In this document: one piece after another, positions 1 through 26,853 of the stretch
How positions within the stretch are numbered: the stretch's first letter is position 1
Layout of the letters: each line of letters begins with the position of its first letter
NCBI GenBank assembly: GCA_002280855.1
Contig: NCEU01000006.1
Span: forward strand, 38,090-102,089
Direction of reading: 5' to 3'
DNA from: Sphingomonadales bacterium 32-65-25
Lineage (GTDB): Bacteria; Pseudomonadota; Alphaproteobacteria; Sphingomonadales; Sphingomonadaceae
Length of the DNA: 64,000 nt
The notes under the pieces: model-generated
Told to the model about the DNA's origin: nothing
Databases searched by the model: none
What the model saw: only the letters and a program-made list of their open reading frames with translations
Translations under genes and position numbers: made by a program

Positions 1-309
1 GGCGCCGACCGCGTGCATGTAGCGGATCATCCAGCCGCCGTTGACGTCGCGCATGATGTGCTCGACCGAATCAAAGGCGACGCGCGTGTCGGCGGCAAAG
101 TGCATGGCCAGCACCACGCCGGTGATGATCTGGATCACCAGCGCCACGCCGGCGAGGACGCCGAAATTGTAGAAGGCGTTCAGGTTCTTCGGTGTCGGAT
201 AACCCGGACCCAAAGCGCCATGAACGAAACGGGCAAGCGGCAGGCGCTCGTCCATCCATTTGCCGACTTCGCTCGTCGGCTGATATTGTTTTGCCCAGGG
301 AAAGCTCAT
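1..309 (-). CDS. petB: Cytochrome b of the bc1 complex, N-terminal part (runs off the window edge)
   Basis: Manual reverse translation from ATG at 309: [25 protein letters not shown]...[13 protein letters not shown]...LAMHF...[16 protein letters not shown]; lies directly downstream of the Rieske gene. Confidence 0.95.
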
Positions 310-21355: not shown

Positions 21356-22519
21356 ATGAAGAAGCTGGTGTGGGGAACGGCCGCGCTGTTGGGCGTGGCG
21401 GCGGTGGGCTTGTTCGGCTTCGCCCCCGGCATTGCCGAGCGCGGCATGAACAAGCAGACGGGCGCGACGTGGCCGGTGAGCGCCGAGGCCCAGGCGCTGC
21501 ACAAGACGCTGACCGTGATCGATCTGCACAGCGATACGCTGATGTGGAAACGCGATCTGCTTTCCGAAACCAGTGATGGCCATGTCGATCTGAAGAGGCT
21601 GGAGACCGGCAATGTCGCATTGCAGGTATTTTCCAGTGTCACCAAGACGCCGCGTGGGCAGAATTACGAGAAAAATTCGGGCGAAACCGACAATATCACC
21701 CCGCTGGTGATCGCGCAGATGCAGCCCGTCCGCACGTGGGGCAGCCTGCTGGAACGCTCGCTCTGGCACGCCGAAAAGCTGCACGACGTGGAGAAACGCG
21801 CCGATGGCCGGCTGCGGGTCGTCAAGACGCCGACTGATCTGGCCAGCCTGCTGGCGGACCGTGCGGCGGGCAAGCGCGTGACCGGCGCGCTGCTTTCCAC
21901 CGAAGGCGGGCAGAATCTGGAAGGCAGCCTGGCCAATGTGAAGCGACTGCACGACGCGGGTTTCCGCATGCTGGGGCTGGCGCATTTTTTCGATACTGAA
22001 CTGGCCGGTTCAATGGCGGGGGAGAAGAAGGGCGGGCTCACCGCGCTGGGCGCCGACGTGGTGCGTGAGGCCGAGAAGCGCGGGATGATCATCGATGTCG
22101 CGCACAGCAGCCCGGCCGCCTTTGCCGACGTGCTGAAGATCGCCACCCGGCCGGTCGTCGTGAGCCATGGCGGCGTGAAAGGCACCTGCGACACGCCGCG
22201 CAATCTTTCCGACGATCAGTTGCGGGCGCTGGCCGCCAATGGCGGCGTGGTGGGCATCGGCTATTGGGATGCCGCCATCTGCCAGCCGACACCGGAAGCC
22301 ACCGCCAAGGCGATCCTGCACGCGGTGAAGGTGGCCGGCATCGATCATGTCGGGCTGGGCAGCGATTATGATGGCGCCACCACGGTGGGGTTCGATACCG
22401 CGCACCTCGATGTCGTCACTCAGGCCCTGATGCAGGCGGGCATGAACGAGGCCGACATCGCCAAGGTGATGGGCGGCAATACGGCACGGCTGCTTGCCGC
22501 CGGGCTGGCTCCCCGCTAA
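21356..22519 (+). CDS. Membrane dipeptidase (M19 family)
   Basis: IDLHSD, STEGG, LAHF, DVAHSS, SHGG, GLGSDYDG; N-terminal anchor. Confidence 0.9.
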   Translation: MKKLVWGTAALLGVAAVGLFGFAPGIAERGMNKQTGATWPVSAEAQALHKTLTVIDLHSDTLMWKRDLLSETSDGHVDLKRLETGNVALQVFSSVTKTPRGQNYEKNSGETDNITPLVIAQMQPVRTWGSLLERSLWHAEKLHDVEKRADGRLRVVKTPTDLASLLADRAAGKRVTGALLSTEGGQNLEGSLANVKRLHDAGFRMLGLAHFFDTELAGSMAGEKKGGLTALGADVVREAEKRGMIIDVAHSSPAAFADVLKIATRPVVVSHGGVKGTCDTPRNLSDDQLRALAANGGVVGIGYWDAAICQPTPEATAKAILHAVKVAGIDHVGLGSDYDGATTVGFDTAHLDVVTQALMQAGMNEADIAKVMGGNTARLLAAGLAPR

Positions 22520-22544
22520 GCCGCCTGCCCATGGAGCTGATCGC

Positions 22545-23474
22545 GTGGACCTGATTTCTGGGGGCGCCGCCCTGCCTGGCCATTTGCGTGGCGGCATCGT
22601 GGCGCTGGGCAATTTCGATGGATTTCACGCCGGGCACCAGGCTGTGGTGGGCGCCGCGCGTGATTGGGCACGCAAGCTCGGCCGGCCGGCGCTGGTGGCG
22701 AGCTTCGATCCGCACCCGGCGCGGCTGTTCCAGCCCGATGTGCCGCCCTTCTCGCTTTCCACCATCAGCCAGCGCGGCGAATGGCTGGGCCAGTTCGGCA
22801 TGGATGGCGCGGTGGTGATGCCGTTCAATCGGGCGCTGGCGGCGCTTTCGGCCGAGGAATTCGTCGACGAATGGCTGGTCACGCGGCTGGGCGTGGCTGG
22901 CGTGGTGACCGGCGGCGATTTCACCTTCGGGCGCGGGCGCAGCGGCAACGTGACCGATCTGGAGCGGCTGGGGCTGGCGCATGGCTTTGCGGCGCGGGTG
23001 GTCGATGCGGTGCAGGATGGTACCGGCACGATCAGTTCCACCCGCGTGCGCGCCCTGCTGCGCGATGCGCGGCCAGGGATGGCCGCGGAACTGCTCACCC
23101 GGCCGTTCACCATTCGCGGCACAGTCGAGCATGGCGCCAAGCTGGGGCGGACGCTGGGTTTCCCCACCGCCAACATGACATTGGGCGATTATGTGCGGCC
23201 GGCTTACGGGGTGTATGCCGTGCAGGTCGTGCTGCCCTCGGGCGAGCGTGTGGATGGCGTGGCGAACCTGGGCATCCGGCCGATGATCGATCCCCCAGTT
23301 GAACTGCTCGAAACCTGGCTGATGGATTGGTCCGGCGATCTCTATGGCCAGACGCTGGATGTGCAGCTGGTCGCCTATCTGCGGCCGGAAATGAAACTGA
23401 ATGGCCTTGATGCATTGAAGGCGCAGATTGCGGCCGATGCGACGGCGGCACGGCGCATGCTCAAGGGTGGGTGA
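22545..23474 (+). CDS. ribF: Bifunctional riboflavin kinase / FAD synthetase
   Basis: GNFDGFHAGHQ, ISST.VR, GRTLGFPTAN, E..L.DWSGDLYG; GTG start with GGAG SD. Confidence 0.96.
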   Translation: MDLISGGAALPGHLRGGIVALGNFDGFHAGHQAVVGAARDWARKLGRPALVASFDPHPARLFQPDVPPFSLSTISQRGEWLGQFGMDGAVVMPFNRALAALSAEEFVDEWLVTRLGVAGVVTGGDFTFGRGRSGNVTDLERLGLAHGFAARVVDAVQDGTGTISSTRVRALLRDARPGMAAELLTRPFTIRGTVEHGAKLGRTLGFPTANMTLGDYVRPAYGVYAVQVVLPSGERVDGVANLGIRPMIDPPVELLETWLMDWSGDLYGQTLDVQLVAYLRPEMKLNGLDALKAQIAADATAARRMLKGG

Positions 23475-23507
23475 CAGGCACGCGCCCTTCCCCTAAAGCC
23501 CACCCTC

Positions 23508-26357
23508 ATGAGCGCGCCCGATTATCGCCCCACCGTTTTCCTGCCGAAAACCGACTTTCCAATGAAAGCTGGCTTGCCGGAGCGTGAGCCGCAGATTCTC
23601 AGCGTATGGCAAGCGGCCGATCTTTACACCCAGTTGCGTGAAGCCCGCGCCGGACGGCCGAAGTTCATCTTCCACGATGGCCCGCCCTATGCCAACGGCG
23701 ACATGCACATCGGCCACGCGCTGAACCATATCCTGAAGGATGCGGTGGTGCGCACGCAGACGCTGCTGGGCAAGGATGCGCCCTACATCCCCGGTTGGGA
23801 TTGCCACGGCCTGCCGATCGAATGGAAGGTGGAAGAAGCCTACCGCGCCAAGAAGCAGAACAAGGACGACGTGCCGGCGGTGGAATTCCGCGCCGAATGC
23901 CGCGCCTATGCCCAGCATTGGGTGAACGTGCAGCGTGAACAGCTGAAACGGTTGGGCATCAGCGCGAATTGGGAAAAACCCTATCTCACCATGGACTTCC
24001 AGGCGGAAGCCACCATCGTTTCCGAACTGCTGAAGTTTGCGCAGAGCGGCCAGCTGTATCGCGGCGCCAAGCCGGTGATGTGGTCGCCGGTGGAAAAGAC
24101 CGCGCTGGCTGATGCCGAAGTGGAATATCACGACATCACCTCGACCCAGATCGATGTGGCGTTCGAGATCATGGAAGCCCCGAACGCGCCGGAACTGGTG
24201 GGGGCGCATGCCGTCATCTGGACGACGACGCCGTGGACCATCCCGGTGAACCAGGGCATCGCGTATGGGCCGGAGGTGGGATATGTCGAATGCCAACTTC
24301 TCCTTGCCGACCGGCTTATTGCTCAAGACGAACGCGAGTCTATTTGGGAACAAATCGCTTGGACCGAGGCTGGACGGTATTTGGTTGCGGACAATCACCT
24401 CCGCGCTGATCTTGAAAAGCGTGTAACAGACCTGCTTGGCGTTACGGCATTTCTACGTCCAGATGGCGAATATAGCGGAAGAGATCTAGCCGGCGCGAAG
24501 GTCCGCCACCCCATGCACCATCTCGGCGGGTTCTTCGCAACCCCCCGCCCCTTGCTGCCCGGCGATTTCGTCACCACCGATCAGGGCACTGGCCTCGTCC
24601 ACATGGCGCCGGATCATGGTGAGGATGATTTCGCGCTGTGCAAGGCGCATGGGATCAATCCCGTCTTTGCCGTGGAAGGCGATGGCCGTTACCGCGCCGA
24701 TTGGCTGTGGCTGGGCGGCGAGTCCAAAAACGTCATCAACCCCAATCTCAATGCGCCGGATGGGCCGATCTGCACCGATCTGCGCGGCGCGGGCGGGTTG
24801 CTGAGCGCCGGGCCGTTTGCGCACAGCTATCCGCACTCGTGGCGGTCGAAGAAGAAGGTGATCTTCCGCTGCACGCCGCAATGGTTCGTGCCGATGGATC
24901 AAGGTGAGCACACGCTGCGCCAGAAGGCCGTTGCCGCCATCGCCGCCACCCAGTTCACGCCGGACAAGGGACGCAACCGCATCGGCGCGATGGTGGAAGG
25001 CCGGCCGGATTGGGTCCTCAGCCGCCAGCGGGCCTGGGGTGTGCCGATCACCTTGTTTGTTGATCGCAAGACTGGCGACTATCTTGTTGATAAGACAATC
25101 AACGACAAGATTATCGCGCGGTTCCGCGAACAGGGCGTGGACGCCTGGACGCCGGAGTTCGCCGCCGAGTTGCTCGGCGACAAGGCCGATCACTACGAAC
25201 AGGTCACCGACATTCTGGACGTGTGGTTCGACAGCGGCTGCACCCATGCCTTCGTGCTGGAATCGGGCCGCTGGCCGGAAATGCAGTGGCCGGCGGATCT
25301 GTATCTGGAAGGCAGCGATCAACATCGCGGTTGGTTCCAATCCAGCCTGCTGGAAAGCTGCGGCACCCGCGGCCGCGCTCCTTACAACGCCATCCTCACC
25401 CACGGCTTCACCATGGATGCCAGTGGCCGCAAGATGTCGAAGTCGGAAGGCAATACGGTCAATCCGCTCGACGTGATGAAGACCTATGGCGCCGATATAT
25501 TGCGGCTGTGGGCGCTGTCGGTCGATTTCACCGAAGATCACCGCATCGGCGATGAAATCCTGAAGGGCGTGGCCGATCAGTATCGCAAATTGCGCAATAC
25601 CTTCCGTTATTTGCTTGGCGCTCTTGAGGGCTGGAGCGAGGAAGAGCGCCTGCCGGTCGATCAGATGCCGGCACTGGAGCGCTGGGTGATGCACCGGCTG
25701 TCGGTAATTTCCGGCGAGCTCAAGGCGGCGGCCGTGGCCTATGACTTCAATCGCTACACCAGCCTGATCACCGAGTTCGTGCAGAATGATCTGTCCGCCT
25801 TTGCGATGGATGTCCGCAAGGACAGTCTCTATTGCGACGCGCCCACCGCGCCGGCCCGCCGCGCCTGGCGCACGGTTCTGGATCTCACCTTCCACGCCCT
25901 CACCCGCTGGCTGGCGCCGGTGATGGTATTCACCGCCGAAGAAGTGTGGGGTACGCGATATCCGGATGCTGGCAGTGTGCATCTACTGGAATGGCCGGAA
26001 ATTGATGCCGGCTGGCAGGATGCGGCGCTGGACAAGCAGTTCACTTTGGCGCGCAAGTTGCGCGAGGAAGTCTATCTGAAACTGGAAGAATTGCGCCGCG
26101 CCAAGACGGTGGGCAGCTTCCTGGAAGCCAGAGTGACGATCACCACCACTCATGAAGACCGGATCGCAGCACTGGCCGGGCTTGATCTGGCTGAACTGCT
26201 GCTGGTCGCCAATGTGTCATTGACCCATGGCGACAACGAAACGCTGACCGTTGAAAAGGCCGATCTGGCCAAGTGCGCCCGCTGCTGGCGCCACCTGCCC
26301 GATGTGAATGCCGAAACCGAGCTGTGCGGGCGTTGCGACGCGGTCGTTCATGGCTAA
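23508..26357 (+). CDS. ileS: Isoleucine--tRNA ligase (type 1)
   Basis: HDGPPYANG, HIGH, WTTTPWT, GTGLVH.AP.HG, WVLSRQR.WG, KMSKS, C-terminal CxxC...CxxC. Confidence 0.99.
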   Translation: MSAPDYRPTVFLPKTDFPMKAGLPEREPQILSVWQAADLYTQLREARAGRPKFIFHDGPPYANGDMHIGHALNHILKDAVVRTQTLLGKDAPYIPGWDCHGLPIEWKVEEAYRAKKQNKDDVPAVEFRAECRAYAQHWVNVQREQLKRLGISANWEKPYLTMDFQAEATIVSELLKFAQSGQLYRGAKPVMWSPVEKTALADAEVEYHDITSTQIDVAFEIMEAPNAPELVGAHAVIWTTTPWTIPVNQGIAYGPEVGYVECQLLLADRLIAQDERESIWEQIAWTEAGRYLVADNHLRADLEKRVTDLLGVTAFLRPDGEYSGRDLAGAKVRHPMHHLGGFFATPRPLLPGDFVTTDQGTGLVHMAPDHGEDDFALCKAHGINPVFAVEGDGRYRADWLWLGGESKNVINPNLNAPDGPICTDLRGAGGLLSAGPFAHSYPHSWRSKKKVIFRCTPQWFVPMDQGEHTLRQKAVAAIAATQFTPDKGRNRIGAMVEGRPDWVLSRQRAWGVPITLFVDRKTGDYLVDKTINDKIIARFREQGVDAWTPEFAAELLGDKADHYEQVTDILDVWFDSGCTHAFVLESGRWPEMQWPADLYLEGSDQHRGWFQSSLLESCGTRGRAPYNAILTHGFTMDASGRKMSKSEGNTVNPLDVMKTYGADILRLWALSVDFTEDHRIGDEILKGVADQYRKLRNTFRYLLGALEGWSEEERLPVDQMPALERWVMHRLSVISGELKAAAVAYDFNRYTSLITEFVQNDLSAFAMDVRKDSLYCDAPTAPARRAWRTVLDLTFHALTRWLAPVMVFTAEEVWGTRYPDAGSVHLLEWPEIDAGWQDAALDKQFTLARKLREEVYLKLEELRRAKTVGSFLEARVTITTTHEDRIAALAGLDLAELLLVANVSLTHGDNETLTVEKADLAKCARCWRHLPDVNAETELCGRCDAVVHG

Positions 26358-26853
26358 ACGTGGTTTTCTCCTTGCGGCGTTGGTGCTGATCCTGGATCAG
26401 ATCAGCAAATATTGGGTGCTGGAAATCATCCATCTGCCCGAACGCGGCGGCATTGATGTGTGGCCGTTCTTCCGCCTGACGTTTGTGGGCAATATCGGCG
26501 TGTCGATGGGCATGTTGCAGGCCGATTCCGATCTGGGCCGCTGGCTGCTCACCTTCATCACGGCCGGTATCGCGCTGGCGGTGGCGCTGTGGCTGCGGCG
26601 GGAGAAGAACCCGGTGGATGTGGCAGCGCTGGGCCTGGTACTGGGCGGCGCCATCGGCAACATCCTCGATCGGGTGCGGTTCGGTTATGTTGTCGATTTC
26701 CTGCATTTCTTCTGGGGGCAAACCAGCTTCTGGGTCTTCAATCTTGCCGATGCCGCGATTACACTGGGTGTGATATTGCTGTTGGCGCGTGCCGTGCTGG
26801 CCAAGCCAGAGCCTGAAGCTGCTGTTAATTCAAGGGATGCCAAAGATGCGTAA
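26350..26853 (+). CDS. lspA: Lipoprotein signal peptidase II
   Basis: DQISK, N.GVSMG, GGAIGN..DRVRFG.VVDF, FNLAD. Confidence 0.97.
   Translation: MAKRGFLLAALVLILDQISKYWVLEIIHLPERGGIDVWPFFRLTFVGNIGVSMGMLQADSDLGRWLLTFITAGIALAVALWLRREKNPVDVAALGLVLGGAIGNILDRVRFGYVVDFLHFFWGQTSFWVFNLADAAITLGVILLLARAVLAKPEPEAAVNSRDAKDA

What the first reader, a model, noticed from the sequence alone, without database searches (positions are those of the whole stretch)
24279..24490. In-frame foreign-looking cassette inside the IleRS editing (CP1) domain
Seen: just after WTTTPWT, about 70 codons (residues ~258-327) drop to about 51% GC (107/210 by my count). More than half the codons end in A/T, including CTA, AGA, GTA, ACA and CCA, which are rare elsewhere. 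Host-like sequence resumes sharply at ARHPMH-type conserved residues. The protein (949 aa) is near normal length, so this is a replacement, not a large insertion. Inference: a hypervariable, swapped surface segment in an essential synthetase. It could reflect escape from a toxin, phage protein or inhibitor, or targeted micro-recombination.
Basis: partly seen in the sequence, partly recalled or inferred. Interest (0 to 1): 0.65.

Follow-up and report, generated by a model that had tools for sequence, protein, structure and literature searches.

The report
Swappable hypervariable cassette in IleRS
The AT-rich patch in this bacterium's essential isoleucyl-tRNA synthetase gene is real: it is one of at least 70 unrelated versions of a small folded piece of the proofreading domain that related bacteria exchange by recombination, and nearly all versions share the odd codon usage.

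Summary
Observation confirmed. Codons 258-327 of ileS (window 24279-24488) have GC3 0.41 against 0.77 in the rest of the gene. GC1 and GC2 are normal. This is the strongest internal GC3 dip in any convincing gene of the genome.

The patch is not a one-off foreign insert. It is one allele of a hypervariable cassette in the CP1 editing domain, lying between the WTTTPWT peptide and the conserved His. In Sandarakinorhabdus and other Sphingomonadaceae the cassette is 40-113 aa long and falls into about 71 types. IleRS pairs up to 98.6% identical outside it can carry unrelated cassettes.

This ileS is a recombination mosaic on an S. limnophila-like background. Its cassette type is rare and old: four other carriers are known, with flanks only 66-87% identical. 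Within the type it is under purifying selection (dN/dS 0.13-0.22), and it is predicted to fold.

Low GC3 is a family-wide property of the cassette: a mean of -0.21 across 71 genes, negative in 67. It is therefore not evidence for a low-GC donor. Its cause is unresolved.

The parts
23508..26357 (+). ileS, a type 1 bacterial isoleucyl-tRNA synthetase of 949 aa. It is the only ileS in the genome and sits between ribF and lspA.
   Evidence: ORF and neighbours. Pfam PF00133, PF08264 and PF06827. Best PDB matches are IleRS1 of P. megaterium and S. aureus. Only one IleRS-level match in G000.
24219..24239 (+). Thr-rich editing peptide WTTTPWT (codons 238-244). It is the conserved upstream anchor of the cassette.
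   Evidence: Sequence. W238-T244 are invariant in 75 IleRS.
24279..24488 (+). Hypervariable CP1 cassette (codons 258-327) with GC3 0.41. This is the rare 'CQLLLAD...GRYLVAD...TAFLRPD' type.
   Evidence: Loss and return of homology at codons 258 and 328. GC3. Five carriers of this type. dN/dS 0.13-0.22. Predicted fold is beta 258-266, helices 273-282 and 287-290, beta 291-295, helix 296-310, beta 314-323, with pLDDT 63-93.
24324..24377 (+). Extra helical element (codons 273-290) in the first beta-hairpin. It is absent from the canonical short (E. coli-length) form.
   Evidence: AF2 secondary structure. Alignment with the short forms of G003, G004, G007 and G001.
24228..24542 (+). Largest likely extent of the imported recombination tract (codons ~241-345). 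In it the nearest sampled sequence is S. rubra, at only 71-88% nt identity.
   Evidence: Nearest-neighbour scan in 25-codon windows and sliding identity.
24507..24518 (+). HPMH (codons 334-337). It contains the conserved editing-site His and is the downstream anchor of the cassette.
   Evidence: Sequence. H334 and P335 are invariant.
24543..24722 (+). Adjacent mosaic segment (codons ~346-405). It is 97-99% identical to G005 (S. oryzae-like) but only 85-89% identical to the otherwise closest G003.
   Evidence: G005 is identified through contig length 25,197 and the P0057 name.

Best explanation
The patch is one allele of a hypervariable, exchangeable in-frame cassette. The cassette encodes a small folded sub-element (beta-hairpin, helix, beta) of the IleRS CP1 editing domain. 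It lies between the Thr-rich peptide and the conserved His.

Shown:
- In Sandarakinorhabdus and other Sphingomonadaceae this element exists in dozens of mutually unalignable versions, 40-113 aa long.
- Identical or near-identical IleRS backbones carry unrelated versions.
- The same version occurs on backbones only 65-87% identical.
- This genome's ileS is a patchwork of segments, each closest to a different species.

Inferred:
- The cassette was placed into an S. limnophila-like ileS by homologous recombination through the conserved flanks. The tract covers at most codons ~241-345.
- The donor was an unsampled lineage carrying an old, rare cassette type, shared with S. rubra and three other Sphingomonadaceae.
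- The cassette is functional. It is under purifying selection, is predicted to be ordered, and leaves the editing motifs intact.

The low GC3 is a stable, family-wide property of the cassette region and not a donor signature. The most likely cause, by inference only and at about 35%, is this: because nearly every lineage has a different version, cassette DNA is left out of the between-lineage gene conversion that homogenises and GC-enriches the flanks. Its synonymous sites then sit nearer the AT-biased mutational equilibrium.

Why the diversity is kept is unknown. It could be a tolerant loop combined with recombination, or balancing selection.

The confidence given (0.75) is for the cassette-swap core of this statement, not for the cause of the low GC3.
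For: Break in the closest relatives:
- G003, G004 and G007 match residues 1-270 and 317-949 at 92-94% and do not align across the patch.

Recombination mosaic:
- The flank tree nests G000 among the short-type genomes G003, G004 and G007. S. rubra and the other carriers of the type lie outside that clade.
- G000 is 99-100% nt identical to G003 at codons 441-500, 571-650 and 700-800. It is 97-99% identical to G005 at 351-405. In the cassette tract the best match is S. rubra at 71-88%.
- Breakpoints fall at codons 258 and 328.

Cassettes swap between backbones:
- Core identity is bimodal. With flanks 98.6% identical the core is 29% identical (P0027/P0044), and with flanks 96.8% identical it is 17% (P0001/P0005). 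Conversely, cores 55-59% identical sit on flanks 65-71% identical.
- 138 distinct cores fall into 71 types.

The G000 type is rare and old:
- Only four other carriers were found among 5.8 billion proteins and 185,579 species genomes.
- S. rubra, P0003 and P0004 also carry an insertion near residue 465-497 that G000 lacks. G000 therefore received only the cassette tract.

The cassette is functional:
- dN/dS is 0.13-0.22 in the cassette and 0.11-0.25 in the flanks. Cassette dS is 1.6-2 times higher.
- AF2 pLDDT is 63-93 over the cassette.

The GC3 trough is general:
- The mean shift is -0.21 in 71 genes, negative in 67, Wilcoxon p = 4.6e-13.
- The trough steps down about 5 codons after WTTTPWT and recovers about 10 codons before the His.
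- Other variable columns and insertions of ileS have normal GC3, 0.73-0.80.
- Polarised third-position changes in the cassette are balanced, 7 W>S against 8 S>W, so there is no sign of amelioration.
Against: - No donor was identified. The best cassette match is only 79% nt identical, so the direction and date of the swap are inferred from tree nesting alone.
- The recombination-exclusion explanation of low GC3 is not demonstrated. The GC3 deficit does not correlate significantly with how many same-type sequences were sampled (rho 0.12, p = 0.31).
- Some long, rare types show no deficit (G008 type -0.02, G360 +0.04).
- The higher dS in the cassette may partly be an artefact of NG86 under skewed composition.
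- The correlation between GC3 and synonymous identity along the gene (rho 0.40) is confounded by composition.
- The polarised-substitution test rests on 15 sites.
Confidence: 0.75

Rival explanations
1. Recent import from a low-GC foreign donor. Under this reading the patch keeps its donor's codon usage and has not yet ameliorated. This is the literal 'foreign cassette' reading.
For: - The composition boundaries are sharp and coincide with the loss of homology.
- The tract has no close relative among 61 species of the genus.
- Several other long versions are equally AT3-rich: G440 at 0.42 vs 0.85, and G029 at 0.40 vs 0.80.
Against: - GC1 and GC2 are host-like, and only GC3 differs.
- All five carriers of the type have GC3 0.23-0.37 below their own gene, although their synonymous sites are saturated against each other.
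- Cassette divergence tracks flank divergence.
- W>S and S>W changes are balanced.
- No low-GC, phage or plasmid source was found.
- 67 of 71 versions share the trough. Under this reading that would need a low-GC donor each time.
Confidence: 0.1
2. Position-specific selection for rare, slowly translated codons. Under this reading a translational pause while the CP1 sub-element is made aids co-translational folding, so AT-ending codons are kept whatever the amino-acid sequence.
For: - The GC3 trough sits at the same place in 67 of 71 genes, although the protein sequences are unrelated.
- Other variable parts of ileS have no trough.
- The composition looks stationary.
Against: - Canonical short versions have little or no trough. 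These are the S type of G001, G003 and G004, and most other families of the order.
- The deficit grows with cassette length (rho -0.39).
- Synonymous divergence in the cassette is higher than in the flanks, not lower. That is the opposite of what constraint on codon choice predicts.
- No expression or ribosome data are available.
Confidence: 0.12
3. Conflict-driven diversification. Under this reading the cassette is a docking surface for an antagonist such as a toxin, a phage protein or a protein inhibitor. Negative frequency-dependent selection then keeps many types and favours swaps.
For: - The pattern resembles a balanced polymorphism. There are many old, discrete types, swaps occur between near-identical backbones, and selection within types is purifying.
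- Divergence in the cassette is deeper than in the flanks.
- Earlier notes of this scan, unchecked by me, report similar AT-rich swappable cassettes in HisRS, ThrRS, TrpRS and SerRS.
Against: - There is no direct evidence for any antagonist.
- No linked immunity or toxin gene is seen. The neighbours ribF and lspA are ordinary.
- A neutral model may suffice: an insertion-tolerant hairpin, frequent recombination and long-lived alleles.
- No literature on such an antagonist of IleRS CP1 was found.
Confidence: 0.15
4. Assembly chimera or mis-join that places a fragment from another organism inside ileS.
For: Reads could not be inspected. The exact protein could not be looked up on independent contigs.
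Against: - The reading frame is intact through both junctions.
- The tract is a proper IleRS CP1 segment.
- An isolate genome (S. rubra MO-4) and three other assemblies carry the same cassette type in the same place.
- The genome is 100% complete with 0.05% contamination.
- Mosaicism is seen along the whole gene.
Confidence: 0.02

Closest known systems
Mosaic chromosomal genes made by homologous recombination between related lineages, for example penA and pbp genes of Neisseria and Streptococcus (from my own knowledge).
   Same: A short internal tract with a different history from the rest of the gene is bounded by conserved sequence. The gene as a whole is a patchwork of segments closest to different species.
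   Different: - The exchanged piece is not a diverged homologous stretch. It is one of about 71 mutually unalignable versions of different lengths.
- No drug selection is known.
- The tract carries a family-wide GC3 trough.
Segmentally variable genes (Zheng, Roberts and Kasif 2004, PMC387263)
   Same: A highly variable region is embedded between well-conserved regions. That paper lists aminoacyl-tRNA synthetases, with the ProRS insertion/editing domain as its example, among such genes.
   Different: - The paper's definition compares distant species and needs at least 70 variable residues. Here the variability is between species of one genus and between near-identical backbones.
- The segment here is 40-113 aa.
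- The paper attributes aaRS variability to tRNA recognition, which was not tested here.
Aminoacyl-tRNA synthetase homeoalleles
   Same: Divergent aaRS allele classes coexist in a group of relatives and are exchanged by recombination. This gives a patchy, trans-species distribution.
   Different: Homeoalleles are whole-gene classes, usually two. Here only a ~70-codon sub-domain is exchanged, and there are dozens of classes.
Hypervariable central domains between conserved ends, such as flagellin FliC, and target-recognition domains of type I restriction HsdS (from my own knowledge)
   Same: A conserved scaffold carries a cassette-like middle part with many unrelated alleles shuffled by recombination.
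   Different: Those proteins are surface-exposed or are specificity determinants under known diversifying pressure. IleRS is a cytoplasmic housekeeping enzyme with no known antagonist at CP1.
Conserved rare-codon clusters (Clarke and Clark 2008; Chaney et al. 2017; from my own knowledge, not read here)
   Same: Rare (AT-ending) codons are enriched at a homologous position in many orthologues.
   Different: The enrichment is tied to the non-canonical cassette versions and is absent from the canonical short form. Synonymous divergence is not reduced.

Membership tests
Type 1 bacterial isoleucyl-tRNA synthetase (IleRS1) | Class I signature motifs HIGH and KMSKS | tested here: met
   The translation contains 'GDMHIGHALN' and 'GRKMSKSEGN'. 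Pfam PF00133 is recorded for the protein.
Type 1 bacterial isoleucyl-tRNA synthetase (IleRS1) | CP1 editing domain with the Thr-rich peptide, the conserved His and the GTGxVHxAPxHGxxD block | tested here: met
   WTTTPWT is at 238-244, H334-P335 follow, and GTGLVHMAPDHGEDD is at 360-374. All are invariant in 75 relatives.
Type 1 bacterial isoleucyl-tRNA synthetase (IleRS1) | C-terminal zinc-binding domain, and closest structures of type 1 rather than type 2 | tested here: met
   CxxC...CxxC lies at 923-943 and PF06827 is recorded. The best sequence and fold matches are 8C9E/8C9F (P. megaterium IleRS1) and 1QU2/1FFY (S. aureus). IleRS2 entries score lower.
Mosaic gene made by homologous recombination | Different segments of one gene have different nearest relatives (phylogenetic incongruence) | tested here: met
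   Window-wise nearest neighbours switch between G003, G004, G007, G005 and S. rubra. The flank tree conflicts with the distribution of cassette types.
Mosaic gene made by homologous recombination | An identified donor lineage, or a formal breakpoint test (RDP, GARD or PHI) | tested here: inconclusive
   The nearest cassette (S. rubra) is only 79% nt identical. No formal recombination program was run. Breakpoints were read from alignments.
Segmentally variable gene (Zheng et al. 2004) | A variable region of at least 70 aa flanked by well-conserved regions | tested here: met
   The cassette is 69-70 aa here and 40-113 aa in relatives. Its flanks are invariant over many residues. It is borderline on length. 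The definition comes from PMC387263.
Diversity-generating retroelement target (variable repeat) | A near-identical template repeat elsewhere in the genome, with adenine-specific differences | tested here: not met
   blastn and tblastn of the patch against the whole genome find only the patch itself.
Intragenic repeat element (RPE- or MITE-like in-frame insertion) | Multiple copies in the genome and terminal inverted repeats | tested here: not met
   There are no further copies. Only short, chance-level inverted repeats are present. No Rfam family matches.
aaRS homeoalleles | Whole-gene divergent allele classes replacing one another | tested here: not met
   Outside the cassette, G000 is 92-97% identical to the short-type genes. 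Only the sub-domain differs.
Conserved rare-codon cluster | Rare-codon enrichment conserved at a homologous position regardless of sequence | tested here: inconclusive
   A trough is present in 67 of 71 genes, but it is absent in the canonical short forms and dS is not reduced.

The most novel reading that the evidence does not exclude
The IleRS CP1 cassette is a recognition surface in a genetic conflict. An unknown antagonist (a toxin, a phage protein or a protein inhibitor) docks on it, and negative frequency-dependent selection keeps dozens of old types that lineages exchange through the conserved editing motifs. Earlier notes of this scan, not checked by me, report similar AT-rich swappable cassettes in HisRS, ThrRS, TrpRS and SerRS. 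Together with those, this would point to a general, undescribed arms race centred on aminoacyl-tRNA synthetase surfaces.
Probability: 0.15. Interest if true: 0.85.

Novelty: new variant of a known kind. Interest (0 to 1): 0.6.

Why it matters
- An essential, single-copy translation enzyme shows allelic diversity of a kind normally seen in surface antigens or restriction-specificity subunits. There are about 71 unrelated versions of one folded sub-element, swapped between near-identical genes. I found no description of this for IleRS.
- It bears on how ileS is used. The gene is unsafe as a phylogenetic or typing marker across this region in sphingomonads.
- It shows that the CP1 editing domain tolerates wholesale replacement of one structural element.
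- The sharply bounded, family-wide GC3 trough is a natural experiment on what keeps GC3 high in GC-rich bacteria. The candidates are recombination-linked biased gene conversion (Lassalle et al. 2015, PMC4450053, listed but not read), codon selection and mutation. Here the same gene holds a segment that seems to escape that force.

Tried and rejected
- Frameshifted origin of the patch, in which the old GC-rich third positions become first or second positions. Rejected: total GC is lower, and GC1 and GC2 are normal with no position near 0.8.
- DGR template, repeat element or MITE. Rejected: there is no second copy in the genome and no meaningful inverted repeats.
- Embedded RNA. Rejected: the only Rfam hit in 23400-26500 is a chance mir-7 match at E = 0.36.
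- Antisense ORF 23493-24398. It has an Arg/Pro/Gly-rich off-frame composition and was treated as spurious.
- 'Variable sites simply have weaker codon bias'. Rejected as sufficient: poorly conserved columns and other insertions of ileS keep GC3 at 0.73-0.80.
- 'Only the inserted residues are AT-rich'. Rejected: high-occupancy (canonical) columns inside the cassette are as GC3-poor as insertion columns, about 0.58 vs 0.62.
- Phage or plasmid reservoir of cassettes. Nothing was found.
- Rarity of a type as a predictor of the GC3 deficit. Not significant with this sampling.
- GC3 against synonymous identity along the gene. The correlation is positive but confounded by composition, so it was not used as evidence.
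- Other genes of this genome with similar patches. No convincing case was found. The other top dips are start-codon miscalls, off-frame ORFs, a tRNA region or low-complexity tails.
Independent contigs for the exact protein: none on record.
Full report
**1. The observation**

ileS occupies window 23508-26357 on the + strand and encodes 949 aa. It lies between ribF (22494-23474) and lspA (26308-26853).

The reported stretch covers codons 258-328.
- Its GC is 109/212 = 0.514.
- In 70-codon windows GC3 falls to 0.43 at residues 261-330. The rest of the gene stays at 0.73-0.87.
- For codons 258-326, GC1/GC2/GC3 are 0.725/0.406/0.406, against 0.645/0.442/0.774 elsewhere. The anomaly is therefore purely one of synonymous codon choice.

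Against the whole genome (64.9% GC), 64-codon windows average GC3 0.777 (sd 0.073), and 0.05% are at or below 0.45. The ileS dip is about 5 sd from the mean maximal internal dip. The few ORFs ranked above it look like off-frame ORFs, start miscalls, a tRNA region or low-complexity tails.

The edges are exact. Homology to the nearest relatives ends at codon 258 and returns at codon 328.

**2. What the segment is**

The protein is an ordinary type 1 bacterial IleRS.
- HIGH, KMSKS, the editing motifs and the C-terminal zinc fingers are all present.
- The best sequence and fold matches are P. megaterium IleRS1 and S. aureus IleRS.
- It is the only ileS in the genome.

Names attached to close homologues place the genome in Sandarakinorhabdus, family Sphingomonadaceae.

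The patch lies in the CP1 editing domain, between the Thr-rich peptide WTTTPWT (238-244) and the conserved His334. PDB relatives align on both sides of it but not across it.

AlphaFold2 (75-sequence alignment, mean pLDDT 79.5) predicts the patch as ordered, with 10-residue block pLDDT of 63-93. The predicted elements are:
- strand 258-266
- helices 273-282 and 287-290
- strand 291-295
- helix 296-310
- strand 314-323

Compared with the short, E. coli-length form carried by the closest relatives, this version adds a helical element in the first hairpin and a few residues later on.

**3. Hypervariability and swapping**

The closest genomes (G003, G004, G007) match residues 1-270 and 317-949 at 92-94% but do not align across the patch.

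Across 36 species of the genus nearly every one has a different sequence here. On the column range used, lengths run from 32 to 105 aa, while the flanks stay 70-97% identical.

Among 120 full-length homologues from metagenomes and genomes the relation between flank identity and core identity is bimodal.
- P0027 and P0044 have flanks 98.6% identical and cores 29% identical, which is the background level of a forced alignment.
- This protein and P0005 have flanks 96.8% identical and cores 17% identical.
- Conversely, cores 55-59% identical occur on flanks only 65-71% identical.

In total, 138 distinct cores (40-113 aa) fall into 71 types by single linkage. Gradual divergence cannot give unrelated cores on 98.6%-identical backbones, so the cores must be exchanged.

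In other families of the same order the segment mostly keeps a canonical length and is recognisably conserved. The hypervariability is therefore concentrated in this family.

**4. This gene is a mosaic**

A tree of the flanks nests G000 inside the short-type clade G003/G004/G007. S. rubra and the other carriers of the G000 type lie outside that clade.

In 25-codon windows the nearest neighbour changes along the gene.
- Codons 441-500, 571-650 and 700-800 are 99-100% identical to G003.
- Codons 351-405 are 97-99% identical to G005 (S. oryzae-like).
- In codons ~241-345 the best match is S. rubra, at only 71-88%.

S. rubra, P0003 and P0004 also carry an insertion near residue 465-497 that G000 lacks. 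G000 therefore has a short-type, 921-aa-class backbone into which only the cassette tract was placed. The donor is unsampled.

That would be a plausible vehicle for the exchange, but I did not test it.

**5. The cassette type is rare, old and constrained**

A search with the patch alone against 5.8 billion proteins found three other carriers:
- S. rubra
- a Sphingomonadales MAG
- an uncultured Sphingomonadaceae genome

A fifth carrier, P0114, appeared in the full-length search. A scan of 185,579 species genomes found only S. rubra and the uncultured Sphingomonadaceae. Within the genus, 2 of 61 species carry the type.

Patch identity tracks flank identity: 81 vs 87%, 65 vs 68% and 59 vs 67%.

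Within the type, dN/dS is 0.13-0.22, much as in the flanks (0.11-0.25). Both dN and dS are about 1.6-2 times higher in the cassette. That fits cassettes being older than, or less homogenised than, their flanks. NG86 may exaggerate the dS difference under skewed composition.

**6. Low GC3 is a property of the cassette region, not of a donor**

All five carriers of the type have cassette GC3 0.23-0.37 below the rest of their own gene. The same holds for four unrelated cassette types on backbones that are 87-92% identical to this protein in the flank-dominated full-length alignment (87-89% by BLASTP).

Over 71 distinct ileS genes the cassette averages 0.21 below the surrounding gene. It is negative in 67 (Wilcoxon p = 4.6e-13), and this genome is the third most extreme. 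The deficit grows with cassette length (rho -0.39, p = 8e-4).

Averaged over 70 genes, the trough starts about 5 codons after WTTTPWT and ends about 10 codons before the His.

Several simpler causes do not fit.
- It is not a general effect of variability. Weakly conserved columns and other insertions in ileS keep GC3 at 0.73-0.80.
- It is not confined to inserted residues.
- Canonical short versions show little or no trough.
- Polarised third-position changes between G000 and S. rubra are balanced inside the cassette, 7 W>S against 8 S>W. This gives no sign of amelioration, but it rests on few sites.
- No copy of the patch exists elsewhere in the genome, no RNA family matches, and no phage or plasmid carries it.

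**7. Mechanism**

Shown:
- The segment is a cassette-like hypervariable sub-element.
- Exchange occurs between near-identical backbones.
- This gene is a mosaic.
- Selection within a type is purifying.
- The GC3 trough is family-wide, sharply bounded and apparently stationary.

Inferred:
- The exchange works by double crossover or conversion in the conserved flanks, at codons ~225-257 and ~328-350.
- My preferred cause of the trough, at about 35%, is that heterologous cassettes cannot pair with incoming DNA from other lineages. They therefore miss the gene conversion that homogenises the flanks. Under the biased-gene-conversion hypothesis (PMC4450053, listed, not read) that conversion also raises the flanks' GC3.

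Rivals for the trough:
- selection for slow codons, about 12%
- repeated low-GC import, about 10%
- locally weakened selection through interference, not separately scored

The ultimate reason for the diversity is open. It could be a neutral tolerant hairpin with long-lived alleles, or balancing selection by an antagonist. I put the conflict reading at about 15%.

**8. Comparison with what is known, and novelty**

The mechanics match mosaic genes and 'segmentally variable genes'. The paper that defined the latter already lists aaRS, with the ProRS insertion domain as its example.

This case differs in several ways.
- The number of unalignable types is large.
- Exchange occurs between near-identical backbones within one genus.
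- The cassette sits inside the IleRS editing domain.
- It carries a conserved GC3 trough.

Three literature searches found no description of this for IleRS. Earlier notes of this scan report analogous AT-rich swappable cassettes in HisRS, ThrRS, TrpRS, SerRS and GlyRS genes of other bacteria. I did not check these notes. If they hold, this is one more member of a recurrent and so far unpublished pattern.

**Verdict**

- The 'swapped hypervariable segment' reading is supported.
- The 'foreign donor' reading is not supported, and the 'escape' reading is untested.
- Novelty class: new variant of a known kind. Interest: 0.6.

Noticed in passing
window 25938-26027 (ileS codons 811-840): A second, weaker GC3 dip (0.50 in a 30-codon window). 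It coincides with a stretch where no sampled relative is close: best synonymous identity is 0.68 and nt identity 0.80-0.89. It may be another small imported tract.
   Followed up: partly
window 24543-24722 (ileS codons ~346-405): The segment directly downstream of the cassette tract is 97-99% identical to G005 (S. oryzae-like) but only 85-89% identical to G003, which is otherwise the closest genome. This is a separate recombination tract next to the cassette.
   Followed up: partly
L031 (S. rubra ileS), L032, L033; equivalent to window ~24900-25000 (after ileS codon ~465): S. rubra, P0003 and P0004 carry a ~30-aa insertion near residue 465-497 (for example PMPWVEPKSRAEKGWENEGGAIDPAEEGLAASP). 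G000 and the 921-aa class lack it. Unlike the CP1 cassette, this variable insertion has near-normal GC3 (0.74).
   Followed up: partly
ileS flanks, G000 vs S. rubra (whole gene outside 24279-24488): Polarised third-position changes on the G000 branch are strongly GC-to-AT, 45 S>W against 7 W>S. G000 ileS GC3 (0.77) is lower than that of S. rubra (0.835). This may be real GC loss in this lineage or a polarisation bias from GC-rich outgroups.
   Followed up: no
G000 contig C8, minus strand, ORF at 175203-177618 of the reverse complement (outside the window): An 805-aa ORF carries a C-terminal low-complexity tail of RGDRGPRRDGDR-like repeats with GC3 0.46 against 0.82 in the rest. It was seen only in the genome-wide scan for dips.
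   Followed up: no
window 23493-24398 (-) and 24486-25982 (-): Long antisense ORFs of 301 and 498 aa overlap ileS. Their Arg/Gly/Pro/Ala-rich composition is typical of off-frame reading in GC-rich DNA, so they are probably not genes.
   Followed up: no
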